64,000 bases of DNA, taken from Styela clava (lineage: Eukaryota). Under the pieces are notes generated by a model. The model ran no database searches, was not told where the DNA came from, and saw only the letters and a list, made by a program, of their open reading frames with translations. This document shows, piece after piece, positions 1 to 52,933 of this stretch. The number at the start of each line of letters is the position of its first letter. Position 1 is the stretch's first letter. Location of the stretch: contig NC_135257.1 in the NCBI RefSeq assembly GCF_964204865.1, positions 14,508,001-14,572,000 on the forward strand, in the 5' to 3' direction. The translations under genes and the position numbers were made by a program.

Positions 1-309
1 TTTGACATAATTAACGCCGCTGAGTTTTTGTGTGAACCCCCGGATCCACTCGCATAATTCCGATAAGTTGGTCAGCTAAAGGAAGTTGTTTGTAGCAATA
101 TTCAATAAGAGCATAGATGTAGCATAACAACATTATGTTCAGGAGGTCAGCTCTACTTCAGTACCACCAATACTCCACTGGCTCAAGGAATCAATATTGG
201 TCTATTTTGAAAATGTTTGGCATTTGATTATTTTGAATTTGCATATGATTTATACAGTTGGGATATTTGGTGGATGTCTAGTATATTGATGAAGAGTTGC
301 CAAGCTTTT

Positions 310-346
310 TCATAATTTAATGACATCAATGGACATTTCCGAGATA
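310..346 (-). CDS. Probable terminal coding exon (PISEMSIDVIKL*)
   Basis: Strong acceptor TTTTTTCATCACTCAG, phase 2 fits, TGA at 312-310; splicing to an exon outside the window cannot be excluded. Confidence 0.6.
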
Positions 347-3300
347 CTGAGTGATGAAAAAATATGAATCAGGCTTAACCGTACATCTGTTTAACAGCAA
401 TGATTACAATATAGGTACTCCCCTAGTGTGTTTACCAGATTAGGTTTAGGCCATAATTTTATTCCAAATTTCCTTATTTTCGTTCTATTTCGAGATCGGG
501 CTGTCTGTGTTAGCCAAGCGAATATACCCCCTGTCTATAGGTTTCAGTCCCTTCACACAACTTGATGTAAAATGGAACAAAATTAGTTCCCTTCATATTG
601 GTACACACACTTCTGGAGCAGCACATTTCATCACTCATTTCTGCACTTTCATAGTACCCCTAAATACTATGTAGTAGCCTACCTGACTTCTTAGTTTTAA
701 TGAATAAGTCGCAAAAAATGTTTGATTTAAAAGACTTACGGCTGTCGTCTCGGCACAGGAAGTGAAGGTTGTTTATTTCTGTTCATATTTTCTTGTTCGT
801 TTTCTTTGGAATGAACCCAGTTTGCGTTGTCTTCGTCGAATCCTGAAAGAAATACATATTTGACATATTTTCTGGTTAATATAAATTGTATATAATATAC
901 AGGGTGAAAATTAAATTCAAAACAGTAATAGAAATGTTTATACCTAACACTTCGGTATTCTAGAATTATGCTATAGCGTTAATATAAAGTATAAATAACG
1001 AATGAATTGGATTTGGGTCAAAAATTTTGATAAAACTACGGTAATTTGAGTTTGTGAAATTCTGCAGTGATTTCCTTGCAAAATTACCAGATGCAGAAGA
1101 TTTTAATCATCTTAATTCTAAATGAATTTTGAACATTTCCAATCACTATCAGATCATATTTCACTAGTTTAGTGTGAGCAATACCATGACCTAATTTAAG
1201 ATAACCCATAAGCCATAACCTGCACCTCAATATTCAAGTGCAGAAATTTCAAAGAAAATGTGATTAATAAAACTATATTTAAAGTAATGGTATTATCAAT
1301 AAATCGTATATTTCATCATATTACTTTGACAGTTATGACCAATACTCGAGCAAGAATAGCATATTAGGCAATTATATACTGCTTAATTAATCAATCACCA
1401 AAATCATACACAAATTTTGGTACTATCGTAATGTATGTACCAGGTTAGGGTCAGACCATAGTTTTATTCTGACTTTCCTTATTTTAGTTCTATTACGAGT
1501 TCGGGGATTGTCTGTGTTAGCCAAGTAAATATACCCCCTGTCATAGGTTTCAGTCCCTTTATACAACTTGATGTAAAGTAGGAAAACAAAATTAGTTACC
1601 TCCATATTGGTATATACACTTCTGGAGCGCCCAAATTTGAATAGACAAGGCATATAATACATGGAAATCATGTAGATATCGTAACACATAGGGTAAAAAA
1701 TGGGATATATGCCAAGCAGCTCTTCCATTTAAAATTATACAGGGTAACCCGAAAAATAAAACCCAGGCCGCTCATAACATATTCTTGAAAGGACATAACT
1801 TCCTGAATTACTGAAACTTTTAGGTACAATCATGCACAAACAGAAGTTCAAGTGCTACATAAATTTTATAAGTCTTCTGTTAGTATTTTCTAAGAAGTTC
1901 TGTTTTTTTGGTCACCCTGTATGATGAGTTTCTACTGCTGTTTTTCGTAAAGTTCAGTTTCAAAAAGGTTTGTAATATTGAAACGTCAATCTAAGAAAGA
2001 AGCTCAATAACAGACAGATAAAGTCAATAAAAATACACTTCTTAATATTAAACCACTAACTAAGTAATCTCAAATAAAGCAAATTTATAACGAAAAATGG
2101 TGTTCTGCTTTCCCAATCAGCATCAATAACTCCACAAAACTCGATGCAAAATACTATATTTTTCAAGTAACCGATGATTAAATAAGCATATCCTTAACTA
2201 AGCTTTATATTATTCATCTTATGATAGTCCTACCTACCATTCCATTCAACACAGACAACAAATATTGGTAGCTCATCCCAAAAACTGTCACCTAATAAAA
2301 ATTTATTAAGGATAGTTTACGGCCATGGAATGAGCGACAGCACAGGAAGTACTATTAATAACTGCTGCTAAACCTCTTCTATAATATGATACTGAGTATT
2401 CATAATAAAAAAGTGACCAAATTAGCTCTTCATTGATACTTTACTAAGGACAAGCTGCCACATATTTGCTTGCGTGAAAGGATTTCTAGGACTTCTCATT
2501 CACTTATGTTAACTGTAAGATGATGCCAATATTTCTTTGATTTATTATTGTGTAATGAGAACCCCATATTAATAAATAAAACTTGAAAATATTAAAGGGA
2601 ATTTTCAATTATTTTTTCTGTTTTTTTTTATATTTACTTGTATTCATAATTTATTGATTCTTCAAAACAAAAAAGTCTAGCACAATTCATTACCCTGATG
2701 AAATACTTTAATGTAATGTTCATTGAAAATTTAAAAACTTATTTCATTAATAAATATGAATGATGGATATTTTTTGTGTTTCAGATATAATCTATTTTAA
2801 TCGATTTAATAACTTTTTTTAATTCAACATGAGACTACTTCGATAACTTATCATTATGATAGAAGCCTTTTAAATGTTTCGTAATGTCACACACACTCAG
2901 AAGTGAAGTGACTTTTCTCTCTGAGAAAAGGAACGGGCGATCACGGATTATATATATTAATGGTGGAGCATTACCCAATAGTAAATGCTGATTGTCACTA
3001 CACTTAAATAGTTTAAGTCCAATATGATCAGAAAGACAGGAGGAGTTATTGGTTAAAAAGTTCTGACATTAGAATTCTCTGCCTAGAGGTAAACTCGTAA
3101 TAAACAGATGTGAGTTCACGGCAAATAAAGTGTTACGGATGAAGCATTTCCTAGAAAGTTCCGAAATTAAAGGAAAGCACTCACTTTTCGAATACCGAAT
3201 ATTATTTATAAACTGGACTAGCCTATAGAACTCCCCATTTTTTAATACTACAAAGATAAAATGGCAGCTAAACAATCTGTTGTTTTACAACTACAAAACC

Positions 3301-6300
3301 AAAATATTATTCAGGTATTTGATTATACACCAGCTGAGTGAACATAAAATTACCTGCACAACAAATACATATACTCGGTACATCTGGTATTTTCAACCAA
3401 TACCAACCATACCAGTTACCACACAGCCATTCAATGACTTAATCAACATTACCTTCTTCCATCTGAGTTACCATGATCTCTGGATTAACAGAGTCAGAGT
3501 TCACCTCCTGTTGGTCAGGTTGAGAAACATTTAAAACCATCATAGCAATTTCATTTGGTTTTTCCAATTTATTAATCCAGTCAGTAATTGTATTATTAGT
3601 AAATTCCAGTTTTTCTTTTTTTAACTATGGTTTCGCTGTTAGTATCAACATAATTATAGAAAAATTTTGACACTCGAAACATTGATACTCCTATAAAGAG
3701 AGTATCAGTATCAGTAAAGCTATAGTAAAAGAATGAACTTAAAACTGAACTGAAAAAGTTATCAACATTATAGGAATGAAATACTAAAAAATAAAGCTAT
3801 ATATCGGCAATATTATACTTTAGCAAGTCTTTAAACTAATGACCCATCTCTACCTTTCCTCACTTTACCACCATAGTTGAAAAACCACAAGTAGCCAAGC
3901 ATAAACTACCAAGATTAAATATTTTAATATTATATGGTATATTAGGGAAAAGTCACAATCTATGTTACATTTAATAAAAAATTTTGTTTTTATTCAGGTT
4001 CAGAAGAATAGAGTTGATATGTCATGATTGGATATGTAATAACAATACCAGACAATACATTTAGACCAGGTTTTACAAACCAGTTCTCAATATTACATCC
4101 CTAGACCTGCCACACAGAAAAAAATATTCAACAAAATAACAAGAAACTCAAAGGAAAATCCTTACCGAATCCCATATTATATTCCCATTCAAGATAAGTA
4201 TTGTGACATCCCGTACAACTCCAAAAACATGACATTTGCATGTTGTGAGCCATAAGCCAAGGACGATAGAAGACCATGAAAACGCATCAGCAGATGACGA
4301 CGACGAAAGTAAAAACACTTTCAGAAACAGCTTTACACAATTAGGTTAGCGATGCAGAGCCAGCAAGACCAAACCAATGTCAGCCAGACGCACTCCAGTC
4401 TACCCACTCGACAAATTTAATGCCTTTGAATGTCACGAGAACCTATTTGTTTTTGGTTATTTCGTCAACTAGGAATTTCGAAACAACTCCCAGTAATATA
4501 TTCATGTTTGATTTCGGACGGCCGCAGGTGAATTTACGTCGTATATTTATGTTTGGCCACACCCGACTCAATTTGCTTTGATGAATCAACACGCAGTTCC
4601 ATTCTCCCGTCATAAATACTTTTGTGCTAAATAATGGAAGATCAGCTACCATACCAATGAAAGGATTAGTGACTGAAATAATTTAAGTGGTATTTTCCAC
4701 TAGTGTGTGCAGTGCTTCATTATGCCTTATGGGCATTTGTACTTAATCACTATTTAGCCAATGCAAAAGCAGGATTTCATGCTTTATCCAAATTCACACA
4801 ACGTTACGGTGGTTAGAGACAGGAGTTTATATTTCCAAATGACGCACAGGTGACGTAATACATCGAGGACGATACCAAAAATAGGGAGTTAGGTCATGTT
4901 TATGGCTCTCTGGCACGAAAAACTATGCCGAACAACATTATCGAAGACATAATTTGCGTGTTAGTAGAGGAAATGCACAGACAAAAGCTTTTACCGTCGT
5001 TGAAATGTGGCTTCAAAATGCATAACACGAAGTGTTCTGGTAACGGCAGACATGAATTTTTTGACAAACCAGGCCTGAATGGACATTGGTGGTTCATTAG
5101 ACCAAGTTATAGTCACCAGCAAAGGAACGATTAAACTGTAGGTCAACATTAAATCGACACCTCATAAAAAAAAATAAAAACGGTCGATTCTGAGATATTC
5201 CCCCATTATACTAATACTATACTAATTTCATCGCAACCTCCTGAAAACATAGAAATTGTGTTGGTGGAAAATCCATTTTCTCGATCTGATTTCTGCTCAC
5301 TTCAAAATTGACATCACTCAGACAGTCGCATTAGAATTTCAATTTTCACATTACAGTATTTTGAAGCAACAAGTCATAAATAAGCTCACACCAAGCTGCA
5401 CTGGACACCCAAACAAAAGAATAAGTATGATGTTATACAACTACTAAATCTTATGTCGTTTTGAATGCATGATGTCGAACCGTGTCCAGGATGTGGCAGT
5501 ACAACAAATCAAGCGGAAGTACTAAAAGGTCCTTTTAAAGTGTATGAACAATGCAGTTACTATTCGAAACTTTGTGAAACAAAAACCACTGAATTTTGTA
5601 TTTACTGAATGCATGTATCCGAAACATCGCGAAACAAAAGCAAAAGAAAGTCGCGTACTGTCGGTATGCGGTAACGACCCTAGGCCCTTACAAGACATAA
5701 AACATCTTTCAACAAACTATATCCATGATATGCTAATGTCACATTTTCAAATACTTAAATTCTTGGATTATGCTGAGATATGTATTTACTTATCTCAAAA
5801 ATACATGAATATAATAGTTACGCGAAATAAAGGAATAACCATCGCATTTTCAAGACGCCAAAAGCAAGCAACAAATCGTGACGAGGGATATAAAAAATGC
5901 CTTCAAAATACGCCAACTATTTCCGGCTTTGGAATGTGGTAAAAAACGCACTGGTATGCTTGGAAGGTCATTCTATCTGTGGTAGATGATTGGTAAATAA
6001 CAATTGCTGACAAGGAATATCGATCAAAATGTCAAAATGTATCTCGGAAACGAAACAAATATGAAATTATATGAAAATAATAGAAAACAAAGCAAAGTTG
6101 CTATATACAAAATTAGTACGAACTACCGTTATTGTGAGGTTCACAATCTAACATCCGTCTTAAATTAGAGATTACGGCGAAATTCCACTGAAATTTGGAG
6201 ATCTTTTTAGAGTACAAATTTGCATTTCTGCTAAATTATCATAAAAAATCTCGTAGGCATATATACATACATGTGACTCATATATAATAGTAAATAATTA

Positions 6301-9300
6301 ATCAGAATTATGAGAACATGAAATTTACAGACGTATGAACTTGAATAAATGTTGAATAGCAACGAACAAAGGTGTCTTCCTCACTGTTTGTCAAAGCATT
6401 AAAATGCGTCCTAAACACTGTAAATCCACCAATCGCGAACAATCGTAAACTTCACCCCATAAAAAGGAATCTGATGACGTCACCGCATACAAAAAAACGA
6501 ATCTCATACACATAGAACCGAACCTACAGGAATTTTTGAAATATATAAAACTAATAGCTTTATGGCGTGATGTAAATTGAAGCGATTGTCAGATTTCATC
6601 ACATGATTTGATGAAGTAGTCTGGCGCATTTGTTTTGGCAAATAATTTGCTTCAAATTGCATTGGAATGTATTTATGCAGTCCCTGATAAATTAACGTTG
6701 ACACGCGAACTACCGACATAAGCCAATATTAAACGGGGATCAAAACCAAAGATCTACGAACACTCAGAGGTTCACTAACTAAGCGATCGTCATATCCCAC
6801 AAAGTGACCTCGACCAACTACTATGGGTTTATATACCAAAAGCAACACTGCTTCAATAATAAACATTTGTCCAAAGTATTATGACATCATAGCCAAAGGC
6901 GAACGTTCGGCTATACAAAGGGCTTAGATGTACACAATAAAAAATCTTGAGTAACATGAAATAGACTTTCCAATTTTTTAGCAAAATTTTGTCGAAGAAC
7001 TGATAACTGGAGGGTGTACTTGGCAAATTCAATGATTAGGAAAACACTATAAGGTATGTATGTTTTTTTAACAGTATAATCCTACATGCCATATTACATG
7101 TCGATGTCAACTCTTGTAAGATAAAAGGCAACAATGATATCACATAGGAAGCAACAAAACCACACGATATGAGATAATCATGAAGAACTCCATAATAAAC
7201 ATGACGATTTACCTATTTTAATTCCTAAAAAAATAGTAACGTCTAAAAATATTAGTTGTTGATATAACAAACTTACTGAAAAATTTTTATTGTAATTGAA
7301 CACTTTAACGCATAGAAGGTTTAGAAAGATTCAGAAGGTTTAGAAAATTATATTATTATTAAAATTCAACATCAGCGATTGTTTGTGTACGAACGATTAT
7401 TAACGTCCTCCTTCGTCCCCTATTCCAAATGCAAGGCTTAAATCAAATTCGAAATAATAACATTCGAATAAATAAAAATCGGAATTTTATATCGATATAA
7501 TATTACTGTTCGCTTATTAAAATCTACATATGGCGCCGTAGGTAAAATTTGAAATAGATCAAGATTCTGCTACTCAAGGAATCGCATCGGAATATTTAAT
7601 GCTTAAAAAACTATGTCAAGTGTCAACCAATCAGTGAATGAACAAAAACAATAGATTTGATAGCATGTGATAATACTTAGAGTCGTTATTCGACGATTAA
7701 ACAAACGTCTTATGATATTGAGTTGTAATATTTAATGCCCATATTAATTGCATAAAAGAATTCAAATAACGAACTAATTTGATATGAGGTCGGAAGGAGG
7801 CGGAAAAAAAAAGTCAATAACAGTATTGATAAATATTTCCTAGTCGGCCCTTATCGATGTCAGGCAATATATTTTGGTATTTCTGAATAAGCATTCCAAC
7901 GAAACTAATTTGATTACGTCAGCAATGCCAAGTTAGAACGAAACCAAATAAAAGATAATCAATTGCTAGACTACAACTACAGCGTTTATTCATGTTATGA
8001 AACTTAATAGCAAGAAATATTGCGATAATATCTTTCCATAAAATTTAATATAACCAGCCAAATCACACAAAAACATGTTATTCGTTATAATGTACCCGCG
8101 ATCAAGATGTGCTTAAAGTGACATCAGTCTCAAATGCACTACCCGCAAATTTACCATGAAAATCTTCATTCCAAAACACGATGAGCAAACCAACAAATAT
8201 TAATAAACGTAGAAATTGAGAAATTTAAATACAAAGGCTCGTGTTGATGGGGAAATTTTGAAAAACAAAAAAAATGATGAACGATTGGATGCAAATTTTT
8301 CAAACAGTTTTCAAAGTATTTCAGCAAGAATTTTTAAAAGTAGATACAAAAAATTCCCGAATAAATTAGAATTATATTGTAACGTTATATTACACCACTC
8401 GAGATTTCGAACATTTCATTTCGATGTCAATTTAAATCCGATAAGTGAATATATTGCAGAGAGCAAAGAAAGAAAGGAAATAACCACTATATTAAAGATA
8501 TAAAAAAGAGAACAAAGATGACGACAACTTCACCAACACAGGTGCATTGAATATATCAAAATAGCGGTGACATAAAAATTGAATCAAATAAGATCTACTC
8601 TCGCGCCAAAAGTGACTATAAGAACCAAAATTAGACACGTCATTTTTAACTACTCAAACTAATACCCAGACAAAAACCTGATACCTATCACTTCTTCTAT
8701 ACCATTTGACATGGAAAACAGACATATTGGCTGACTTTATACGACGCAAAAGCACCGTTTAACTAGGCTAACTTTACGTTGTGCTGTCACCTATGCCAGT
8801 TTTGATATCGATCCGGCAGTCCACATTGTATTACGTCGTTTAATCACGCATTTAATTCCGATCACGTTTCAGAAAAGGAGTCGCCAAATGAAAAGTGTCA
8901 AAAGACGTGACAAGCAGTCTAAACATTTTTTTCAATAGATTAAGAAAGAAAAAACTAAATATAAATCGTTTGTGTTATGAAAAAAAACATTACGATGACT
9001 CGCATTAATTAATACCAAAATAAAAAATGCCTGGCCAAATACCAGTGACAACACGTTGTGCTGTGTACAAATAAACTCCACTATTAACATATAGCCAGTT
9101 TCAGTTCAAAAAAGAAATATCACAATTTTATAGAATGACTGTATTATTGACCTTGATTTAGCAGGGTTGGTACAACTGGGAGTAGGGCATAATATTGAAC
9201 ATTTCCAGGAAATAGGTTGAGTATTTCAAGAGAGTGGTTTTAGAAAGGAGGCGACGATAGGTTGGTTTGCTACTCCCGTTATATGTGTGCCAGGTTGAGG

Positions 9301-12300
9301 TTAGGCCATAATTTTATTCCGATTTCCCGCATTTTAGTTCTATTACGAGTTCTGGAACTGTCTGTGTTGGCCAAGTACTTATACCCCCTGCCCGTAGTAA
9401 TCAGTTCCTTCACACAACTTGATGTGAAGTAGGCGAACAAAATTAGTTACCTCCATATTGGTACACACACTACTTCTGGAGCGCCGTTAGTTCTTTATAG
9501 CAAAAACTGGATATCGTTATTTTTCCGATAGCACCAATTTACCAATCATGACCATCGGCATTTGGAGACGACAAAAATTGTTAATATGATAAATACGTCG
9601 GAAACAGAAACGAAGAACAATAAGGACTAAAAAAAGTGACAGACGTATGCAAAATGCAAGTATCATTGAAAAAATACCATTCGCTAAAAATCATTGAAAA
9701 ACACAATCTACTCACCTCCCCATCTTGTTTTCTCAGGTATCTTTCGCTTTCTCGTACTCAACGATCGTCTCAAGCCGGCAGCGGGTGAGCTGACACGCAA
9801 GCTCGCGACCCGTTCCAGCGCTGGCATTGGACGCATATGTATTGTGCACCAGTGACAAACACAAACGCAAGGACGATTTTCCCTCCCTCGTGGACCTTTT
9901 CCCATTCAACAGGAAATTCCGATATTTAGAAATAACAAGCGTATATATATCCTTGATATTCCCGTAATACAGAAGCAGGAATCAGTGTAATAACTTTGTA
10001 TTCAATATTAATATTGCTTGTTTTACAAAAAAAAAATTGAAAATTGATTAAATTTGTGACGATTAATAAACTACCGGTATCTATCTCATACTATGGGTTT
10101 TTCTACGTTACATTTTCTACGTTTCTTTACCAGAATTTCGGAAGAATATATACAGATTTACTGAGTAGCAGTCCCTAAAAGTAGCATACTTAGAATCTCA
10201 CAGTGCGCTACTATAACCGGGCATAACTTTTCACAAATCAATGAGCGTTATAGATTTGGTGTGATTTTCGTACGGACACAGTATTATTACCATAGAATTA
10301 ATTCAATTCAAATACAAATTTAAATATTTCAGAAGAATAAAAATTCACATGCTTCCTCACACTACGTTCTAGTCTAAGGTTGTTGTTCCAAATTCAACCC
10401 GACAGAAAAGTACTGCTCACAATGCAGTAACTAGGGCAGTCCTAGTGGCAACAGATTTCTATTACCTTCAACTGCAATTAAGCCAAAACTACATATTGGA
10501 AGATGTGTTGGACTAGAGTCAAAGTCATTGACAAATGACAACGTCGCGTGATAAACCGTATAAACACAAGCCAGTTTACTACTTTCAAATATTTCACCTC
10601 CTACCAAAACACTGAGTCCCTTATAATTTTCAGACAAATTTGCGTTCACGAATAGGTTCAGTAAGGCGACTAATAGACTGAGTATTCCCGTATGTTGAGC
10701 CTAATATAGGACAGACGGTTGAGGGACCGGTAGCCACAGAGCTATGCATAATTAATAAATATCGTCAAACTGTGATGGAAAATATATTGCATCTCGAGAA
10801 AAACACAAGCGTCGAAAACAATGACGTAATCTGTCAAATCGATGCTTTTTTGTTCAATTTTCAATTCGCTGTCAAATCGATGATTTTTCGTTAATTTTCA
10901 ATTCGAACAAACAAAAAAAATCGATTCAATATTCCGGGTAATCGCTTGTTTAAAACACTATATCTAGGGGGACAAGGTTTTTGTCCACCTAGACTGTTGG
11001 GCCATGCAAGTGTGACGTGGAAAGTTACATTTTGTGAACAATATTTACAGTGTTACAAAAGCAAGAGGGGAAAACAATCTCAACAAATTCATTGAGCTAT
11101 GTTTTAGCTAAAACATCAACATTTAGTTTCAATTTGGTTGTGGCAGCACCAGGTGGGCCAGATTGATTTACCCTACGAGCCGAATTTGGCCCGCGGGCCA
11201 TAGTTTGCCCGTGCCAGCTTTATAACATGAATGAACAAGCAATCTGATACCTCGAACGCATAAAATATCGTAATTATCTTCAATATGAAATACATTCAAA
11301 TAAATTGGGAAAGTTAATCCTGCGCTATGTGACTACAGGTTCGACAAAAATTGTTGGTTAAAAAACAAGTGGCGCGAACAAATTTTCATTTTAAACCAGA
11401 AACTTATATGATCAGTTATGTCAAATTTGGGCATCAATACTCAAATGTGTTCGTTATATTTTCACACTTTGACACCGTTCGTTTTACATCATACTAAAAT
11501 GAATTAAATTGTAAACAACGATGAACTTATACCGGGTTATCAATTACAAAAAATATTGTCATTAGAAGATGGTCGTGTGAACATCAATTACCCATTTTGT
11601 TTCAATTTAGAACGGACATCACCCATCCATCTATCCAATTACTTATAATATATTTGCATACACATTGTGATGTGTGTTGAAAATATATTTTATTAATTTC
11701 AGTAAATAGACATAAATGAATAAAAAAGGTCGCACGTGTTATAATACCGTTAAAAAGTCAAGAAAAATACCCGAATTCATTTACATTTAAGTATAAAACC
11801 AAATGGCGTTTGGGTATTATTGATTCATGCACAACCAAACATGTACCATTGATGAAGCGTGCCGAGAAGGCGCATTTTATCTATGGCACATGTTTGGCAA
11901 AAGATACTTTTTATTTGGTCTTAAATATACACACTTACGATGAAATACTAATTGATTTGTTGCACATTTTTTACAGTACGGAAAAGAATAATTGAATCAA
12001 TTCCAATGTAATTCTCCTCAGATCGTAAAGACGAAACCCATTAATATTTTATGGTATTTTCACGTTTACGACGTGACAACGACTGTTGAACTTGGCGATG
12101 TGTACTCTTGATGTAAAATCCCCTTTTTTGAATTTGAATTTAAATCGCGTTCTGAGAACTACTGTTTACAGTCTTATATTTTCATAAAGCTCAGGCTAGT
12201 GTGATAAATTACTATGATATACAATCAGAAAATGTTCACACACAACTAATGTCGTAAGATTGTGTACTAATCATAACAGCGTGTTATTCATTATCAGTTG

Positions 12301-15300
12301 TCATTTAGGCTGAAGAAAATCATGTTCAGACGATGAGTAATTAAAAAATTTATTGGTCAAAACGTAATATTACCAAATAAGTAAATTTGTCAATAATAAT
12401 GTGTAGTGCAAGACGCTAAGATGAAGACATGGAGTAATGAGACATGTATTATTGAAGAAAATGTTCGAAGATTTAGAAAATCTCCTTTACACTTTTCCCA
12501 ATATTCGTCATTTGGATAATGAAATTGGTTTATTTTTTGAAGGAGAAAAATTTGGCTAATATACGATTTCGTTCACAATGTTTGAGTTTGAACAGTCGAA
12601 ATAGAAAAATTACTATTCGTTTATCAAAGAGTAAAATACTCGTTTCCGTTAAAGCTAATCCAATAAAACACGTAAAGTATAATAGTTCTTATTCCCATAA
12701 GTTCTCATTATCAATTCCATATGTCATTTCCGCCAGTCGGAAGAATTATTAGACTATATTATCTTGATATTGATCAATTATTCTAATTTCCGCTATTTTC
12801 CCCTAATTCCGGAAAAAACGATTTTAAGTAGCACATAATAATTCCAAACGCTTTCCAACTTTAGGATTTTAAAATGGCCAGGCTGTACAAAATATATTCC
12901 CACCCGCATAATCGATCTGTTTGTGATTTTCATCAAGAATAGTGAATGGATCGCAGCTGAAGCAAATTCGTTATTCCATAAAAAATTCAAATTGAAATTC
13001 CCATTTAAAGACTATTTTAGAGAGATTAAGTCGTGAAACTGTTTTCAAGCTAACGCATACCAGGAACAGATTAATGATGTCCTAATCCTTTTGCAATGTT
13101 TTGAGATTTTCTGCTATGGTTTATAAAGATAGGCCGATACGATTAATTACGTGTTTACAGAAAAGAAGTTTTGTTTGATGTTCACTCAACTTTCCTTTTA
13201 AAATAAGTTTATGTACAACCAAGAAGTCAAGTGCGGCGTCGCCAACGGGTTAGGAAAAGTAGGAATTTTTAAAAGCAGCAGACAACTTGAGGTTGCAGTG
13301 GAATTCTCCATAGGGCAAAAACTATTCGCATAAAAATTTCTACAATTCAACAAAGTTTCTACGTTTTCGAGCAGCTCTAATTTCCTTCCAAACAGAAGCT
13401 CAAAGAATATTACCTAAATTAGACGCTGAAAAGCATTCAAAGCACTCTTAGAATATTCCTAAAATAATAAAAAATTCAAGAAAGAACACTCTTGCTAATT
13501 CTGACATGCTCGACGTACGGCTTGCACTTGACATACTAATATGGTATGCGCAGCTGTAGAATGGCGACGTCGCGTCTTGATTTATTATTTACCCTCTGCT
13601 AGTGCGACGATGTTATGATGGTAATAGATTGCTTACAGCTATTTATCAATAAACAAGCAGTTTATTGGTCACGTGATAATATGACGCAGATTGCATGAAG
13701 GTCAGAAAACAGTAGCAAAACTAAAAACATAATCAGAATGACCTGGTGAACTGCAATCCCCTGTGGCCTATTTTGTTAAGGTGGTCAATTTAATGTTCTA
13801 CAGGGACTTTGTTGAAGCATTTGCATGTAGTTAGTCACCTGAACAGAGCCTACCTGCATATATATGCAAAAGTAACACCACATCAACATTGATTTACATT
13901 TTTAAATGTCAAAATAATATATAGGTTGCAATATCTTAAATGGATGAATTTTGGTGCATAATAACGATATGCCAAATTTTACTCATCTAATTAATAATTT
14001 CACCTCTAAAGTTATAAAAACTTTTGATTAATTTTGAAATCTTGAAAATGACATCTTTTAACACAATACAATCAATAAAACATAATTTCCAGATTCGTTT
14101 AAACTCAATTCGTCGATATTACCATGGCTGTGTTTATAGAATAAAATACGTTACAAAGAGAAGCACTGAAAGTACTGCCCTTCTAGGTAGCAAAAGTATT
14201 ACGTATAGCATTTATAATCAAGATATTGCACTTAACATTGACTTATCTCAACAGTGACTTGCTAATATAACACTTCTAGAATACGCCGATTTGTTACACC
14301 CGTAAAACTTTTCATTTAGATATAGAAATAGCCTATATCAATCATTGCAACTATTTCGTAACTTCAAAATTACGTCATCACTAACAATCATTCTAATTCC
14401 AGAATTGCTATCTTCGAATTTTAAAATCCAATAAAAGCCGCTTTAATTCACAACATATAAGTGTGTCTCTATCAACCATATGCCTCACATTGACATGGTG
14501 CTACTACATAGAGATAATCCGTTATCAAGAGGATTTCGAATACTAATTTCAAATGAGCTGCTTAATACTGGGTGTATATTGATCCCTCGACGAATGCGGT
14601 TTAACTACAAGTACATTTAATAATGAGAGTTTTGTACTCGTCTCGATTCACGCGGACACCATGGAAAACTAATAGTTAAATTTAATGTAATTTCAACGTG
14701 TTTGAATGTGGTAACAAGAAAAATATAACCAATTTAAGCCAGCAATGAGGAAATCTAAATCAGACCCTTCTTCAATTCATTGGATGAAATCTAGAATCGT
14801 GAAAACTATCACATTCACTACGACTGCGAAAGCAAAATGGGATTGAAACATGAAAATAAATGTTACTGTATATTAAAATGCCGCCGGTTACAGAGTTGGT
14901 ATAAGTTTGGCAATCTAAGCGAAATATTTTATTATCAGTACTGATTACAATTCAGCCATATTCACACGAGAACAATACGAAATTTACTTCGTCAGCAAAA
15001 ATAAATTGTAAACGATAAAGTGTAATGAAAGCGTCAATTGGTCGGACAGAAATTTCAAAAAAACGTCAGACATTGAGTTAAAAAAATACTGTATTATAAT
15101 TTTTATGATATAAATAAATCTTACTACAATATGACATTATCATATAACGGACAAATATTTCTGGGTAAACTATATGCAGTCAACACTACTACGAATATAC
15201 AACTGAATTTAAAAAATTTAAATTAAAGTAAGTGTAATGAAAGCGTCAATTGGCCGGACAGAAATTTCAAAAAAACGTCAGACATTGAGTTAAAAAAATA

Positions 15301-18300
15301 CTGTATTATAATTTTTATGATATAAATAAATCTTACTACAATATGACATTATCATATAACGGACTAATATTTCTGGGTAAACTATATGCAGTCAACACTA
15401 CTACGAATATACAACTGAATTTAAAAAATTAAACTTAAAGATATTCGTCTACATTCAACAAGTTCTCATTATGGATATTGATTATGTAAATCAGGTTTTT
15501 GGGGTAAAATTTTCTATTTATTCAGTAAAATCGCGATTTGTCCAGAATTTCAGAATACTTGATATTTCACATATGGATATCCCCTGCTACTAACATATCT
15601 GACTGTCAATATCGCAGAAAGCGAAATTCCATCGCGATGATGACATTCAATTCCGGTGGGGGCGATCGTATTTCTTTCTTATAATCGCAGACGAATGTCA
15701 AATATTTCGGGGAAGTCATCAACACATTTTCCCTGGGTATCCATTTTGTTAAAAAAAATCGTAATTTTGTAAACTAACAATAACAACTATCAAATCAATT
15801 TGTAAAATCACAAATTGTCATATTTTTCGAAAAAACTACTCTAATTTTAGTCGAAATTTTGTGTTCTTTTGAAGACAAACATGACTACTAGTAACTCCAA
15901 CAAGTATACGCCTTCGAAGGCACGCGTCACAGCAAATGTACAAATTAGTGTTTGTTGTTTTTCGTTATGCTCCGTTTAAACCATTTTACAAGTTTTAAGA
16001 TCAACTATTTCTTCTAAGTCAAGCCCAGTTTCGCCGCAGGATCACGGTCTATTAACCTGAATAAAGTTGGCGGTTCTTCAAACACCAAACAGGGTGAAGG
16101 TTATTTCAATGTCAGAAGAGTAAAATTAAGTTCTAAAATGTTAGCAAAAAAGTTGTGATCATAAACTGGACTATCTTGGAAGCAATGACTCTACGATTCG
16201 CTCTATTAATTTGAAATGGATTTGGCAAAATTTGGCTTAAACTGAATTCGAAAATTATGCTTCGATAAAATAAATATTGCTCCCGTTTATCGCAGATTTT
16301 GCAGTTTTCGCAGATAAATTACAATGCGTATATATAATGTAAAATTTGAAAAAAAAAATATTCGACGCTATTCACGTCATTCGCTCATTACAAGGCATAT
16401 TAAGCAGTCAATAATCAGCCACGATATGTGAGGCGCTACTCTTCATTAAAGACCCACATCTCTACTTGGCAGCAAGCTGGTTTAAATTCGCGTTCATTAT
16501 CGTATTTATACAAAATGCAAGTAATTGTGCTGCAAGTTTATAACAGTATACGTTCGAACAAAATGAAAAAAAAAATTCCAAAATGAACAAGGTTGTAAAA
16601 TGTGATAGCAGACAGAATTGTTCCTAAGTTAAAAGTGTCGAATATCAAAGACTCTAAATTGGGCAAACGTAAAACGATACATTTGCTTGCAAAATAGAAG
16701 TTACATTTTGCAATTGCGGTAGTTGGGTTTGAAAATTTACAGTATACAAAAGTATATAATATATAATACTAAATCACCTTAAGTAAGGACCAATGATTTG
16801 TTTTTGATAATTGTCTTTCTCTTGAATCTACAATTGCCATTGTTCTGAATTGAAGGCTGTTTTCTAACCTAACCTAGTTAAGGTACCTCGGCAATACTTA
16901 AATTGAAACTTCGCTATATAGAATTGCATTATATATTACCTGAGAAAAATATTGGAATTCCAATAAAAAATATAGATACAAAAAATAACATTCATTTTGC
17001 TGCATACCTATTGCTAGCTACACAAAACACATTACACAAAATTCAGAGCTTATTCATTTAAAATTCACAAAATTCATTTAATAGGAAAGTTTTTCACTAC
17101 TCATACACAGCACCTTTAAAACCAAAAACCAGTTTTTCACGCTGTACTTGTTTACGTTTCCTGGTAAAAATTTAGTAGATAGAACGCTGTTCCCGCATGT
17201 ATGATGCCACCATAAAAGCAGTTTATTAATATTTTATTCAAAACGGCGCCAAGTATTCACAAATTATCTCTGAAATATCCACACATCCTATAATTAAACG
17301 ACCATATTTTCTATTTTCGGATTGTTAATCGGGATATTATAGGCATACATTGATGTATTATACGTAAAAATTAAGCTGAGAGTTTACTAGAACGTATAAC
17401 AGTTGAATAATACAAGGCCAGTGTAAAGTCCACTTCCCGCGATAAACATAACATAATAAATTTTTAAAATATGCCAATTTTCATTACCCGACCAGCCCGG
17501 GACAAACCGATACTTAGTCGATCAGACGAGATTTTACAATAAATGAATAAATCTTGATATTATATTCGGAAAGTTGTACGTTGTGAGGTCTGAGTTAGCA
17601 GTATCCCGTATCAATCGAGACCAAACCCTGATTGAATGCTGCTATGTCAAAAATCTCCTGGAATTACCCACCGACTATTAAACGACAAGGTAGAGAAATT
17701 AGTATCTCAACGTTGTCCACACTAGAAACTGCCACTTCCATTTTGCCAACACACGTCTACAAATCTCCAGTCTCGTCTTACGTTACCATAGTCGTCCCAA
17801 ATAAAACGAACTGAATATTAAACATATCATCGAAATTGCACAATTCGTGTGGTAAATAATACACAAGCAACTACACTCCCTTCCTCGCTCCCAACGCACA
17901 AATACTCCCTATAAAATTACGCCCATAATTGAAAATTCGAACCTTATCTCAACTCATACTATAAACTAGACCCATACTAAGTTTGATTTATCGATGAATC
18001 ACACTACAAATTGTCGGTATATTGTATTTGAGTAAACCTACAAGATGTCGTCTGCGTGAGGAACGTAACAGTTGGGTGTTATATCGCAAATTCGAACACA
18101 ATTAAACAGCAATCAAGTCGATAAATTACGTTTAAATATCACCAACTGAACACACCGTGTGTCGGCACATTTATCAATAAGGAAGAAGTTCAAACCAAGA
18201 CGAAAGTGATATTCTATTAATGAAATTACATACTGCCGATCGATATTCTGCTAACTTTAATTTGAAGGGTTTCCCAGACTCGCCATCAATCCAGCCAATG

Positions 18301-21300
18301 ACTGCCTCACTCAACTATACACAACTAAAATCTTTCTTCAAGTTCCAGATGAAATTTTATAATCTGACTCATATAAAAATTCTTAATCCAATAGTATCAC
18401 GATTACGGTAAATAAAAACAATCCAAGAGCCAAACTCCAATGCACTGCGATAGCTTAACACTTTTATATCGAAATCAATACCGAAGAACGGCTCGTGCTC
18501 GACTCAATGGAAAAACAATACGCTACCCTGTTATGTGAATATCAAATGTCTTTTTGATATTTCAATAACAGAAATATGTAGAGAATTCGACATTTCAATT
18601 CCAACAAATGTCTTGCACTGTAACGTCTTGGAGACTAATATCGATCAAGTGTGATTAAATTTAAATCCCCATTTGAAGCACAAATTATCTACATCCCATG
18701 CTAGAACATCACTACTTTCAGAAATAACCAATTATCTAAATAAAAATAAATGTAATTTCGGTGGCATTAATAATAACATTATGTAAATTCTTTTATTTCA
18801 AATGTGTGATATACCAAGCGTAAAGCAAATACCATCGGGGTAATAATATTGCGCTGTCGTGATCGTTTCTTGGAAAATCAAATGAACAACTGGCAGACGG
18901 TATATTGAGAATTTTCTAAGAAATAAGAAAGCATGTTGGATGTTGGGTTCATTTTTATTACTGGGTAAAACAGACTTTGTCATGTACAACTGGTGCATTG
19001 CTTTCTTCAATGATCATCATAAGGTTGCATATTATGTGGATTGTCGAAGACCTAACAAATTTAGATTTTCGTACAATGTAGTTTAAAAGTTCAATTATCT
19101 GCCTAGCCCTAATAGAATTGTCGTGTAAGGTTTTCATATACCCCTCCCTTTTTTATGCCGTTTCACAGCAAAGGTGAGGCAAATTTTAATCACTTTTAAG
19201 ATTTTAAGTGAATTTAATACTTGTATATACATTAGAAATTCCTATTTTTCCTCAAGGAAAAGCCCCTCATCACAATTACAAGCTTTACACCTCCTGCAGT
19301 TACATAATGTTCTAAGACAAGAGTATCAAAGTGCTTCGGATTTAATCTGCTTTTACAAAGTCACATCACATGACCATGACACCAAACTCTGTAAAATCCA
19401 CCTGAATTAGTCATTGTAAAATTTAGGGCTAGAGAGCTGGAGTCTGAGCTTGGAAAAACGAGCTGTGATATTTCAGTGGAGCTGGAGGCCAGAACTGAAA
19501 CCAAGCTTACTATACCAGATGGAGCTGGATCGGGAGATGGAGCTGCCAGAAATTTTAGTGGCTCCAGCTCCTCTTAACCATACAATTTTTGGTGCTCCCG
19601 AAGTATGCGCACCGGGATGTCGCTCAACCTGAACCCTAACCTGGTACACGTTTTACTGGTAACCTGTTAATTTCAAGTTGAATTTGTATGTCTAAAACTT
19701 TAAAAATAGATTTCACAGCTTAGGCTTATGTTTCATTGTAGTGTTAATACCAGAAAACATTGATGGTATGGAGCTGAAACCGAAGCTGTTCATGGCTCTA
19801 GGGATGAAAAATAGAGCTCTGGAACTGGAGCCGGAGCGATTGTTATTTCTAACCCACCCCCAGCCCTGGTAAAATCTATTTTTTTTTATTGGTGAAGTGA
19901 AACCCCAATATCCTTTGATTAATAAAAAAAAAATTAAAATATATTCATCTGCATCTAATTTAGAAATTTTCACAAATCCATCCATACTAAGAAGCATTGT
20001 AATTTGTAAAAACTATAAATTTTATAATAAGCAAATCTAATACAGGCAAAATGAAATTGGAAGTGTAGCAAGTTTAATGATAGCGACAAACCAGACAGCT
20101 ATTTTGATTATACTTGAGCAATATACACAAAATAATATAGACTTCCAGATTGAAATGAAAATCTGTGGAGCCCTAAGGTGTTGCAGAACGTTGGTTGAAA
20201 ACCACTGCGTTAAACAAACATGACCATAAAAAGGATTAATGTAATATTCTTACTTTGTGAGCCAGGCGATCTTTTTCTACTTTTGTCAAGCACAGAATAA
20301 ACCGGTTCAGGATTGCTAGAACGAGGTGGTGTTCGGCCCTGTCTGGCTTTTCTTGCGTTCTCAGGAGTGAGTTTTTCACTCTGAATTCTTCGTAAAGAAT
20401 CCTGGAAATCAGTGAAACTTTTACAAGAAGCTATAGCTAGGATACACTATTCAAAATAGATTGACTTAATGACTTTACCATGGTACAGTCTATCCTGTAC
20501 ACGTACAATACATTGTGCCTTATCAGGGACGTAGGACGGATTTTTTAAAAGGGGGGGGTCTGAAATTCATAAATTTATATGTAGAACAGCTGGCGGGTCT
20601 GGCCGGGGCTGAAAAAACCTGGGTTTTCGAGATTGTTAAGGGTGTAAAAAGCGCTTCAACCTATAAGAAATAGCATCTATGATACAGAGAAATGGGTTGC
20701 AAATGGGTTGATGAGGATACCATAAGTAGGGCATTGTTCTAATAATCGAAATATTTTTGACACATAGAATAAAGATTGTATTCCACCCCGGAATTTCATA
20801 GTTGATTACAATATTTTACTCAAACAAATAGTGGTTAGGTTACGAATATAGGTTTCGTATTATCAATGATTATGAACACCCTCTTATTTCTGAAAAGAAC
20901 AGTACGAATTGTCGAACCAAAGATTTTATTTCATTAGTTGAATTTAATTATACCGGTAATCACACTGATTTTTTCAGGGAATCAGAAGTCAAAAAATTAT
21001 TATTATTTTATTTACCAGATTTAATATAAGGAAAATAAGGCATATCAAATTATTATTATATTAAAAGACAAGTGTGAATTACACAATTATTCTTTTCAAA
21101 TAGCATTTATCTATTTTTCTGACCATTTTGACATTAACATTTAGACACAAGTCAAATATTTGACAATCCCATAAGCTTACAAAAATAATAGTGTTGAATT
21201 TTGAGATATTATTTCTAACTGTGTATTGAACAGAAATATGCAAACAAATGTGGATTTTCTAACCTTTTTTCCTAAACATTGAAGAGTTAGAATCACCTAT

Positions 21301-24300
21301 AAATATATTGTTTCTGCAAGTTATATCACTGACTAGTCAAGAAACAAGAATCAATAAGCAAAGAAATAATGCTACTCTAATGCCACCCAGAGGCAGAAAT
21401 TTCATCGAGCTTTTATCATACACATTTATTGAAATTTGCAATGAGAAAACTAAACCTTGGAGTAAGAATATGGCTTTCTATGTATGGCTGGTTTTAGGAT
21501 GGGAGGGAAAGAAGCTTTACTTCTGAGAAGTTAAATTTTCAACTGAAGCGAAAGAAGCTGAAATTGAAATTTTGCGGGAGCTGATGACAATTATTGAAGT
21601 CAGTATTGGAATCGGGTTAAGCCTAAGACAAAAGAAGAAACCCTATTTTCATGTTCAGGTTATTTACACAAGAACATTCACAATTGAAAAAAACGGTATT
21701 TTACCTGCTTTGCTTGATTAGGTTCCCGAGCACTAAGATTTCTTGTTAAATTGGTAGATACCTGTCCTCTATGAACCGGTGAAGCTGCTGTTTTTGTTAT
21801 GGGGGGTGGCGAAGGTGAGTGTCTCTGATGGGGTCTAGGTGACTTGGGCTGAGTGAGTTGTGGTGATTCTGGTCTGAGTGATGAGACCGGAGGTGAAGTT
21901 GCAACTGAGGGTGGTTGATGGGTTAAGGTTCCCTGAGAAAAGGAAAAAATATTTATAAATATGAAATGAATAAGAGGGTAGTGGTAAAAAATATGGCCAT
22001 TGCATTCATGTGACCCCTGCAATATTCACAGGATTTCACCCAAATGTTGAAAAAAATCGTACTAAATGTCATATGAAGGTGTGTCTGCCTATTATAAAAA
22101 AAAACAGCAAAATTTGGGTGAAATATCATGCCCCATAGGAAATAGAAAATTGTAAAAAATAGTCTTCTAGCCACTTTTTCCATCTTCATGTAGTGCATTT
22201 GATATTGATTAGATCATTAGTTATGGAAAAAGGAAGTTAGTTACCATATATCCTCGTATATAAGCAGAGTTTAAAACTCAAAAAAAAGTTACAGTATATA
22301 CTCTTATACTATGATCGCACTAAAAATTCAGTTATAAGCACAAAACTCTGAACGCACTCAAACGAAATGACATTATGCAAACCTAATTCCAACAGCTACA
22401 ACTCGAACCAAGTTCTCACGATAAGAGCGTACGATTTGTAGGGTCGGCTTATATGTGCTGTTTTAGGGTCGTTTTTAGCGGGTGGGCTTATATGCGAAGA
22501 TATACTGTCTATGAAAATGCAATTTTTCGCACAGCAGCAACAACAATCTCAATGAGAAAAAACACAACCAACCATTTTGCAAATCGATCCATAGGTTCCA
22601 ATTTGTGTCCAGTTATAAAAAGTGTGTTAAATGCATATGCTGCGCTTCAGATTAGGGCTGGGAATGGTTAACCGGTAAACTGATTTCAGATGGTTAACGG
22701 TTACGATTTATTTTAACCGTTAACTGACATCTCAGGTACAAATCATCTTTATAATGTACAATTCTTTCAAAAATGATCACGTCATAGCAAATTTATCTCC
22801 TGTGGCGTTTGATTCAGAAGAATATCGCTAACTGTATTGGTGGGGACCTAATAAATGTGAAAATTATTTGAAGTTTCGTGAATAATTTTGAGCGATACAA
22901 GCTAAAACTGTAAATTATTATGTAAAACGTTACGCTGCGGTAAATCGGTTAATTTTACCGGTGAACGGTTGAAGTGTTTTCCCTGAAATTCCCAGCCCTA
23001 CTTCAGATACATATGTTTTTGAGTAAATACAAAAATTAGATCACGAAAGTATACATACTTTTATCTTCCTCAAAAAAGAATGTTTAGCTTTCAACTTTGT
23101 GTCTTTCTTATTCAATAATTCTTCTGCTTCTTCTGATTCTCTTAAGCTCTGAGAAAGAAAAAATCGACATCGAATCAACTTCAAAAAGTTCATTAATTCT
23201 TGGGAAAACCTTGCACATAGAATTTTTTTGACTGGTTGGTGAGTGGTTGGTATACTCACTGTAAATGGATGAAAATTTATCATGCTCAGGACCAGCTTTC
23301 TTTTTTTCTTTTTTTCAAAATTTGAGCTATATGAACTTCCCACATGGCACATTGAATTTAGCTTGGCTTAAACAAGTTTACTTAATTTGGTAAGCTTTTA
23401 TGAGCAAACTCAAATCAAATTTCTATAACTAACTTTTCATTCAGGAAGAACATACCGCATCATAATATATATGTTGGCAATGAAAATTGAAACGAAAATA
23501 AGGCAACTGTACCATTGATAACTCAAACGAAAGTACATAAAACAAATATCCATATTTTCACCTTCTCGTAGGTTTTAAAAAACTGCTCATGTAAATTCAA
23601 AATGTCAGTTTGGTCTTGTAGTTCTTCTTCCAATCCTATGGCAAATTTATCAGCTTGATCCAACTGGTTAGTATTACTGCAATAAAATAATACCAATTTC
23701 ATATTTAATCATATGGGCGTACCATGGCCTATTGCTGATTACCAGTCCACGCCAGGAATGATATTAGTTAGCCAGTTATTTGTTTCTGCAACATGGACTT
23801 GATGGTGGAGGAAGCCCTAATCAACCAGCAGTTACACGAACCACCATACAGTGGTGTAAAGTCCAGCGATCCTTCCGCACATGATTATCTCCCACAAGAT
23901 TCGTACCTGCGAATCCATGCAGAGTAATCAAAGCTGATATGACAAGCTAATTTCGAACTCTTAGCAAGTAATTCATGTTGGCAGATAATTGTTCATATAT
24001 TTGATATTGAATATAAGCAAAAGTTATCTCCAAGAAGTATTACAATGAGATTTTTCAAAGATTTACCATTTGAACTGTGCTTTATCTACTCTACATAGAT
24101 AAGCCGAAAGCATTAACAACTAGGCCATTACAGGCCTTATTTTTTTATTATTGGCAACAGCTAATGAAGATGATTTAATGCCTATTGTTAAGACAACAAA
24201 GACCAGTTCTAGTGAGACATTTGCTCATATGAAAAAAATAGAGATTCAAATAAATAAACTTACTCAACGGAGTCTACAGGTTTGTAGTAAGTATAAGGAT

Positions 24301-52833: not shown

Positions 52834-52933
52834 ATGTCTTCTGTGAAGGTTGCAGTACGTGTCCGACCTTTCAACAGTCGAGAGAAAAGTAGAAATGCAA
52901 AATGTATTATTGAGATGAATGAAGCAACAACAA
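52834..52933 (+). CDS. unc-104/KIF1A: KIF1 coding exon 1
   Basis: [18 protein letters not shown]...; A|GTGAGT donor. Confidence 0.95.

What the first reader, a model, noticed from the sequence alone, without database searches (positions are those of the whole stretch)
310..20401. One C-terminal module, three N-termini: a 19-kb intron hides two phase-matched first exons that would make 83-86-aa micro-isoforms
Seen: exon 740-842 accepts phase 1. Three upstream segments end in phase 1 at strong donors: exon 12 of the long form (20254), 9716-9836 and 4166-4277. The latter two begin with ATG in GC-richer islands. Spliced to 842-740 and 346-310 they give 86-aa and 83-aa proteins sharing the tail ...NWVHSK...PVPRRQPISEMSIDVIKL*. 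Inference: alternative promoters attach one short tail to a ~710-aa disordered phospho-Tyr scaffold, a polybasic leader (RRSLSTRKRK) or a Cys-rich leader. This could let the cell relocalise or compete for the tail's partner. Best candidate for something undescribed in this window, but it rests on splice-signal reading alone.
Basis: partly seen in the sequence, partly recalled or inferred. Interest (0 to 1): 0.7.

Follow-up and report, generated by a model that had tools for sequence, protein, structure and literature searches.

The report
Sea-squirt FAK with many alternative starts
This is the sea squirt's focal adhesion kinase gene, not a source of tiny proteins: the shared exon continues into the kinase gene's FERM exons beyond the window, and the gene likely uses several alternative starts, including a conserved giant exon that would replace the kinase's inhibitory FERM domain with an 800-residue, likely unstructured leader.

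Summary
The splice signals are as described, but the micro-isoform idea is wrong. Exon 842-740 splices to FAK (PTK2) FERM exons just beyond the window, not to 346-310: the RefSeq Styela clava FAK models map there, and transcript-like contigs run 511-1154 nt past 740 in 4 of 4 runs. The three starts are probably real. Contig geometry matches the long form (X9, exact 992 nt), exon 4277-4166 (3 of 4 runs) and exon 9836-9716 (2 of 4). They would give about 1,100-aa short-leader FAKs beside the annotated ~1,790-aa form. Ciona and Clavelina models join long and short leaders at the same exon. Outside the window, an unannotated 800-codon exon reads straight into the Tyr397-like exon. It is kept as one ORF in four other unnamed lineages and would give a FERM-less, de-repressed FAK; its expression is only hinted at. 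Junction letters were not seen directly. This scan noted FAK front exons before on other DNA. Verdict: new variant of a known kind.

The parts
36240..36672 (-). FAK long form, coding exon 1 (ATG at 36672)
   Evidence: exact spliced mapping of RefSeq model P0002
34455..34523 (-). long form coding exon 2
33722..33808 (-). long form coding exon 3 (RefSeq X1, X3, X4 carry 3 extra residues at about this junction)
32924..33008 (-). long form coding exon 4
30521..31042 (-). long form coding exon 5, cassette (skipped in RefSeq X4)
   Evidence: X9 contig starts at the next exon
29557..29645 (-). long form coding exon 6
   Evidence: inferred first base of X9 contig
28997..29163 (-). long form coding exon 7 (conserved Tyr motif)
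27113..27197 (-). long form coding exon 8 (conserved DPY motif)
24264..24333 (-). long form coding exon 9 (conserved DPY..PVDS motif)
23562..23676 (-). long form coding exon 10 (start of the conserved predicted helix)
23059..23148 (-). long form coding exon 11
21705..21932 (-). long form coding exon 12
20254..20401 (-). long form coding exon 13, phase-1 donor to 842
   Evidence: X9 contig has exactly 992 nt before 842
9716..10006 (-). alternative first exon A (basic leader; in-frame ATGs at 9905, 9836, 9827; phase-1 donor; 5' end not fixed)
   Evidence: contigs end at 9715 with 28 further letters in X1 and X3, as simulated; ATGs; single copy in the genome
4166..4407 (-). alternative first exon B (Cys-rich leader from 4277, out-of-frame uORF from 4287; phase-1 donor; 5' end not fixed)
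   Evidence: contigs end at 4165 with 28, 29 and 28 further letters in X1, X2, X3, as simulated
740..842 (-). shared pre-FERM exon (FxEDxxNW motif and proline-rich motif), phase 1 in, phase 2 out
   Evidence: motif present in 5 of 120 FAK hits, none of them a named non-tunicate protein
310..346 (-). proposed last exon of the micro-isoforms: not part of the FAK models; intronic
9737..10024 (+). possible antisense spliced exon overlapping first exon A (unexplained)
   Evidence: X9 contig stops at 9735 with 58 further letters; + strand acceptor scores 10.5, within the gene's own range 1.8-13.1

Best explanation
The minus-strand gene is the ascidian focal adhesion kinase (FAK/PTK2), and exon 842-740 is its shared pre-FERM exon, which likely receives three alternative 5' ends that would give a ~1,790-aa form with a 729-aa likely disordered, tyrosine-motif leader and two ~1,100-aa short-leader forms. 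Shown: gene identity, domain content, exon map, and contigs running past 740. Inferred from contig geometry: the three joints at 842. Inferred mechanism: promoter choice sets what sits in front of the auto-inhibitory FERM domain. The long leader would add phosphotyrosine docking sites and a helical segment. Leader A would add a basic and cysteine patch for membrane or nuclear targeting. Exon B may act mainly as a uORF-controlled 5' leader. Further downstream, one conserved giant exon (and possibly a second) would start the protein after the FERM domain, just before the Tyr397-like site, giving a kinase-FAT protein predicted to lack FERM autoinhibition.
For: Identity: a window exon is 100% identical to RefSeq 'focal adhesion kinase 1-like' X1-X4 of Styela clava. 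The model maps exon by exon with GT-AG joints, 20254 to 842 and 740 to the exon 129 bases before the window. Pfam FERM_N/M/C, kinase and FAT all pass their cut-offs; best PDB match is FAK 2j0j, E 3e-231. Contigs (4 runs, 3 studies): exon 842-740 lies in 1183-1606-nt contigs in 4 of 4 runs. A k=31 simulation of the exon map reproduces lengths 1257 (X1) and 1256 (X2), position 993-1095 (X9), and 29/30-letter overlaps for exons A and B. Extra depth on the 842 bin in X1-X3 (+8.0, +6.4, +8.3) fits overhangs lying on that exon. Conservation: Ciona and Clavelina models carry both long leaders and short basic leaders joined at the same exon. Pre-FERM length is 607-773 aa in 3 ascidian hits against at most 226 in 114 other FAK hits. 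Giant exon: 4 of 5 hits among 1.84 billion representatives are single ORFs of 502-970 aa ending at the same DDYAEI exon. In L009 it is followed by FAK kinase exons closest to tunicate FAKs, with the acceptor kept inside the ORF. No phase-1 acceptor lies at its 5' end in this genome.
Against: Junction letters were never displayed: the joint table listed 15 of 95 rows, and those listed join copies of a repeat. The runs are only guessed to be RNA, are contigs, and give no strand. Path combinations and 5' ends in the simulation were chosen after seeing the data. Lengths 1257/1256 would arise from any second path entering that acceptor, including unspliced intron. X9 holds exon A at depth 212 but not joined to 842 (no excess depth); X2's exon A contig has only 7 further letters. 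X3's 1183-nt end and X9's 3' end are not explained by my models. Leaders A and B have no sequence match to the Ciona and Clavelina short leaders (best E 2.9), and none of the 8 RefSeq-cluster proteins has them. The Ciona and Clavelina short-leader models are fragmentary predictions. The 437-aa second internal ORF has no homologue. No protein-level evidence for any form.
Confidence: 0.82

Rival explanations
1. One reading: exon 842-740 ends the gene at 346-310, giving 83-86-aa micro-proteins.
For: The 346 acceptor is plausible (score 6.5 within the gene's range 1.8-13.1) and the frame closes at a stop.
Against: In 4 of 4 runs the contig holding 842-740 goes on for 511-1154 letters that lie off the stretch, and two end exactly where the FAK exon map predicts. 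RefSeq, Ciona and Clavelina models all continue into FERM.
Confidence: 0.03
2. Exons A and B are real first exons but act as 5' UTRs (translation starts inside or after exon 842), so the 'polybasic' and 'Cys-rich' leaders are not made or not selected.
For: Exon B opens with an out-of-frame uORF and has five in-frame ATGs. The leaders match nothing in Pfam, in 176 session proteins or in the other ascidians' leaders. Vertebrate FAK varies mostly in non-coding 5' exons (PMC1570463, passages).
Against: Both donors are in phase with FAK and open from an ATG; only 3 such frames occur in 19 kb of intron and 2 are the transcribed ones. In exon A the first three ATGs are all in frame. Other ascidian models have coding leaders at this position.
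Confidence: 0.3
3. The giant ORF before the Tyr397-like exon is an internal extension (alternative 3' splice site) that inserts ~800 aa between FERM and kinase, not a first exon.
For: It is contiguous with a constitutive exon; long inserts occur in FAKs elsewhere (many hymenopteran hits have 500-800 aa between kinase and FAT).
Against: The upstream donor is phase 1, but the acceptor at the ORF's 5' end is phase 0; the nearest phase-1 acceptors score 1.3-3.8 and lie 40-95 codons inside. No listed FAK has a FERM-kinase linker above 132 aa.
Confidence: 0.12

Closest known systems
FAK/PTK2 (RefSeq Styela clava FAK1-like X1-X4, XP_077971066-069; vertebrate FAK, PDB 2j0j)
   Same: Same gene as the RefSeq models; FERM, Tyr397-like site, kinase, FAT and the autoinhibition contact residues align with vertebrate FAK.
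   Different: Ascidian long forms have 546-773 aa before FERM against about 30 in lamprey and hagfish. RefSeq-cluster proteins lack the two short leaders and both internal starts.
Ciona XP_078486433/434 and Clavelina CAK8691163 short-leader FAK models
   Same: Short Ser/Arg-rich leader joined at the same pre-FERM exon as the long form.
   Different: No sequence likeness to leaders A or B; they carry a Tyr motif that A and B lack; they are partial predictions.
Human FERM-less FAK transcript BC028733 (PMC1570463, section 11 read in full)
   Same: Starts in the intron directly adjoining exon 15, the exon that lies between the boxes flanking Tyr-397 (deduced from passages), and would give FERM-less FAK with an added leader.
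   Different: Human leader is about 20 residues from a non-canonical ATG and the authors call such variants low-level and poorly conserved; the tunicate leader is 740-970 aa and conserved as an ORF.
FRNK / PRNK (internal-promoter products; PMC1570463 passages)
   Same: Internal promoter in a FAK intron gives an N-terminally shortened product.
   Different: FRNK lacks the kinase and is dominant-negative; all forms here keep the kinase and FAT.

Membership tests
FAK/PYK2 kinases | Three-lobed FAK-type FERM domain | tested here: met
   PF18038, PF00373, PF21477 above cut-off at residues 785-1093; exons mapped just beyond the window
FAK/PYK2 kinases | Tyr397-type autophosphorylation motif in the FERM-kinase linker | tested here: met
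   DDYAEI, Tyr1143, aligned to 2j0j
FAK/PYK2 kinases | Tyrosine kinase domain with catalytic Lys, HRD, DFG and activation-loop YY | tested here: met
   PF07714 E 7e-90; Lys1196, HRD 1288, DFG 1308, Tyr1320/1321
FAK/PYK2 kinases | C-terminal FAT domain | tested here: met
   PF03623 at 1619-1750 of the RefSeq model; I mapped the model to DNA only up to about residue 1450
FAK/PYK2 kinases | FERM-kinase autoinhibition contact (Y180, M183, F596) and F2 basic patch | tested here: met
   Residues named in PMC6162372 (passages); alignment to 2j0j gives Phe916, Leu919, Phe1340 and a basic patch with one Thr-to-Glu change. Sequence only.
FAK/PYK2 kinases | Kinase activity and focal-adhesion localisation | not testable with these tools
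   needs expression and assay
Micro-protein isoform (under 100 aa) | Stop codon reached through exon 346-310 | tested here: not met
   contigs and models continue into FERM exons
Alternative-promoter isoforms | First exon transcribed and spliced to the shared exon | tested here: met
   By contig geometry, not junction letters: exon B 3 of 4 runs, exon A 2 of 4 runs
Alternative-promoter isoforms | Independent transcription start (cap or trans-splice site) | not testable with these tools
   contigs cannot show starts
FRNK-type non-kinase | Kinase domain absent | tested here: not met
   all proposed starts lie upstream of the kinase exons
FERM-less FAK (BC028733-like) | Start contiguous with the Tyr397 exon, in frame | tested here: met
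   ORF reads through the acceptor in this genome and in L009
FERM-less FAK (BC028733-like) | Expressed as a spliced mRNA | tested here: inconclusive
   X1 and X2 contigs end 30 and 29 nt into that exon, showing a second entry path of unknown identity; no reads were laid on the ORF

The most novel reading that the evidence does not exclude
Tunicate FAK is a five-start gene. Besides three FERM-containing forms, it makes FERM-less kinases in which a conserved ~800-aa disordered leader (and a 437-aa Tyr/Pro-rich one) replaces the auto-inhibitory FERM domain right before the Tyr397-like site, giving a de-repressed FAK with its own docking scaffold. The entry point is the same as that of a minor human FERM-less transcript, so it may be an old chordate feature.
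Probability: 0.5. Interest if true: 0.65.

Novelty: new variant of a known kind. Interest (0 to 1): 0.42.

Why it matters
FAK is treated as a fixed FERM-kinase-FAT protein whose control rests on FERM autoinhibition (PMC6162372, passages). In the closest invertebrate relatives of vertebrates it appears to carry a lineage-specific ~700-aa leader, swap that for short leaders, and possibly drop FERM for another conserved ~800-aa leader. If expressed, these are natural versions of engineered FERM-deletion FAK, testable in ascidian embryos, and they are missing from the protein collection searched. The micro-protein claim itself has no value.

Tried and rejected
Micro-isoforms via 346-310: rejected; no contig depth at 1-347 in 4 of 4 runs (absence of cover alone proves nothing, the contig continuation is the evidence). 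No listed run is on record as RNA; 4 of 13 listed runs were laid, on 1-10400 only. Stretch 10400-36672 and the internal ORFs have no read evidence, so the 20254 joint rests on X9 geometry and RefSeq. X9 shows no cover of exon B. Rfam: 0 matches in 1-21000. Pfam: nothing for leaders A, B or the two internal ORFs. Ciona/Clavelina short leaders against the region: no match better than E 2.9. 437-aa ORF: no homologue among 1273 candidates of 439-2000 aa (weak evidence), none in L009, single copy in the genome; no Atlas result. Folds with 5-sequence alignments: Clavelina long leader mean pLDDT 42 with one confident helix at about 531-570; giant ORF mean pLDDT 38. Shallow alignments also give low pLDDT, so this fits disorder but does not prove it; no fold search was run. 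P0169 (E 1e-5, repetitive) was dropped from the 5 giant-ORF hits as spurious. For the pre-FERM count, 6 of 120 hits were set apart as tunicate or tunicate-like (one, C. savignyi, is a partial model with 7 aa). A second genomic copy of exon A as the cause of the X9 oddity: not found. Lietha 2007 was not held and is known only through the review. Literature searches listed no paper on tunicate FAK isoforms; only open-access text is covered, and supplements of PMC1570463 were not opened.
Full report
1. Observation. Exon 842-740 is 103 nt; the donors at 20254, 9716 and 4166 are phase 1; joined to 346-310 the two short forms translate to 86 and 83 aa. Scored with a matrix from the gene's own 32 donors, 9716 is the strongest (12.1), 20254 is average (7.9) and 4166 is just below the gene's range (5.3 against 5.7-12.1). 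Exon A is GC-rich (57%), exon B only mildly so (39% against 33%).

2. What the gene is. The window lies at G000:C9:14508001-14572000. Six stretches before its start hold minus-strand exons for a FERM domain and a tyrosine kinase. An upstream window exon is 100% identical to RefSeq 'focal adhesion kinase 1-like' of Styela clava; its cluster has 8 members, isoforms X1-X4 twice over, 1622-1796 aa, all starting with the long leader. Pfam finds the three FERM lobes, kinase and FAT; the best solved structure is FAK FERM-kinase 2j0j, E 3e-231. The 'shared tail' is therefore the whole of FAK. The short forms would be 1101, 1104 or 1127 aa.

3. Transcript evidence. Thirteen runs were listed, none on record as RNA, nine guessed RNA; four of these, from three studies, were laid on 1-10400. 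They are contigs, without strand. Outside repeats they cover mainly 740-842, about 4165-4400 and about 9715-10020. Exon 842-740 sits in contigs of 1257, 1256, 1183 and 1606 nt; in X1-X3 the contig begins exactly at 842, in X9 it has 992 nt before it. From the exon map, the distance from exon 29645 (the exon after the cassette skipped in X4) to 842 is 2188-1196 = 992. Contigs on exon B stop at 4165 with 28, 29 and 28 more letters (X1, X2, X3); contigs on exon A stop at 9715 with 28 more (X1, X3) or 7 (X2). A k=31 simulation of a three-way merge reproduces these numbers, including the one-base shift caused by A and B both ending in G, and the 842 bin has extra depth in X1-X3 but not X9. Limits: the junction letters were not displayed; simulation paths were chosen after seeing the data; X3's 3' end and X9's 3' end are unexplained. 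In X9, exon A is deep (212) but stops at 9735 and does not feed 842; a good + strand acceptor sits there, so an antisense spliced RNA is my guess.

4. Conservation of the layout. Ciona and Clavelina FAK models are 1563-1739 aa with 546-722 aa before FERM. Their leaders align with this one (28% over 646 aa to Clavelina, E 4e-22), keeping several tyrosine motifs, an LPP.LEEEP segment and a helix. Of 120 FAK hits, 114 non-tunicate-like ones have at most 226 aa before FERM, median 66. The FxEDxxNW exon motif occurs in 5 of the 120: three ascidians and two unnamed metatranscriptome-type proteins. Ciona XP_078486433/434 and Clavelina CAK8691163 join short basic leaders at the same residue, so long-or-short choice at this exon appears in three ascidian orders (order assignment recalled). 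The short leaders themselves are not alike.

5. Beyond the finding: internal starts. The 15-kb intron after the last FERM-side exon holds open frames of 485 and 828 codons; by base composition such lengths have chance of about 1e-16 and 6e-28 per site. The 828-codon frame reads through the acceptor of the DDYAEI exon; the other ends at a phase-1 donor that fits the same acceptor. A search of 1.84 billion representatives gave 5 hits; 4 are unnamed single ORFs of 502-970 aa, 27-53% identical in the alignment, all ending at that exon; the fifth is a spurious repeat. Metagenome contig L009 shows the ORF followed by FAK kinase exons whose 14 best matches are tunicate FAKs, with a pyrimidine tract and CAG acceptor kept inside the ORF. 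In this genome no phase-1 acceptor lies at the ORF's 5' end, which favours a first exon over an insert. Contigs X1 and X2 end 30 and 29 nt into the DDYAEI exon, so a second path enters there, but its identity is not shown. The predicted products are about 1,455 and 1,092 aa, lacking FERM.

6. How it likely works. Shown: domains, exon map, conserved autoinhibition residues. From established FAK biology (PMC6162372, passages): FERM F2 binds the kinase C-lobe, and deleting FERM raises activity. Inferred: promoter choice tunes FAK. The long leader (51% S/P/R/K/D/E, 17 Tyr) would supply phosphotyrosine docking sites. Leader A, basic and with a cysteine cluster if 9905 is used, would bias membrane or nuclear targeting. 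Exon B, with its upstream out-of-frame ATG, would mainly limit translation. The internal starts would give kinase-FAT proteins free of FERM restraint with their own disordered scaffolds. None of this is tested.

7. Against what is known. Vertebrate FAK has several 5' leader exons, one with an in-frame ATG adding 25 aa, a FERM-less human transcript starting next to exon 15 with about 20 extra residues, and FRNK (PMC1570463; passages, section 11 in full). Ciona appears there once, in a tree. Eight searches listed no paper on tunicate FAK isoforms. Two earlier scan notes on other genomes describe vertebrate FAK front exons, one with cysteines; I did not test them.

8. Verdict. Observation partly confirmed; interpretation partly supported. 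The micro-isoforms are an artefact of the window edge. What remains is a known gene with two unannotated first exons and, more interesting, a conserved unannotated giant exon that would make a FERM-less FAK. New variant of a known kind, interest 0.42.

Noticed in passing
L004:6255-8732 minus (C9:14487032-14484555): 828-codon open frame reading into the Tyr397-like exon; conserved as one ORF in four unnamed lineages; candidate first exon of a FERM-less FAK.
   Followed up: yes
L003:3346-4657 minus (C9:14492857-14491546): 437-aa Tyr/Pro-rich frame from ATG to a phase-1 donor that fits the same acceptor; no homologue found.
   Followed up: partly
window 9737-10024, + strand: In run X9 a deep contig stops at a strong + strand acceptor inside first exon A with 58 unplaced letters: possible antisense spliced RNA over the FAK internal promoter; no long frame.
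   Followed up: partly
window 408-619, 1413-1631, 9266-9487: A ~215-nt dispersed repeat with very high summed contig depth in all four runs; no Rfam match.
   Followed up: partly
window 16057-16134, minus: An older RefSeq model (XP_039271181) runs the long leader into this intronic piece, which has a stop here, and then into LDLa repeats not found in the region: likely a mis-built model.
   Followed up: partly
window about 52835-63653, + strand: Kinesin motor exons, divergent from FAK; kinesin-3/KIF1-like by recalled motifs, no search run.
   Followed up: no
window 31272-31781 minus and 31814-32379: A 170-codon frame that looks like a BED-finger transposase start (recalled) beside a ~280-nt tandem duplication, inside a FAK intron.
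   Followed up: no
window 15018-15440: Tandem duplication of a 211-nt unit in the 19-kb intron.
   Followed up: no
P0040-P0129: Many hymenopteran FAK models carry a 500-800-aa insert between kinase and FAT: a separate case of large optional segments in invertebrate FAK.
   Followed up: no
P0014, P0015: Two unnamed proteins share the last exons of the ascidian long leader, suggesting the leader extends to other tunicate groups.
   Followed up: partly
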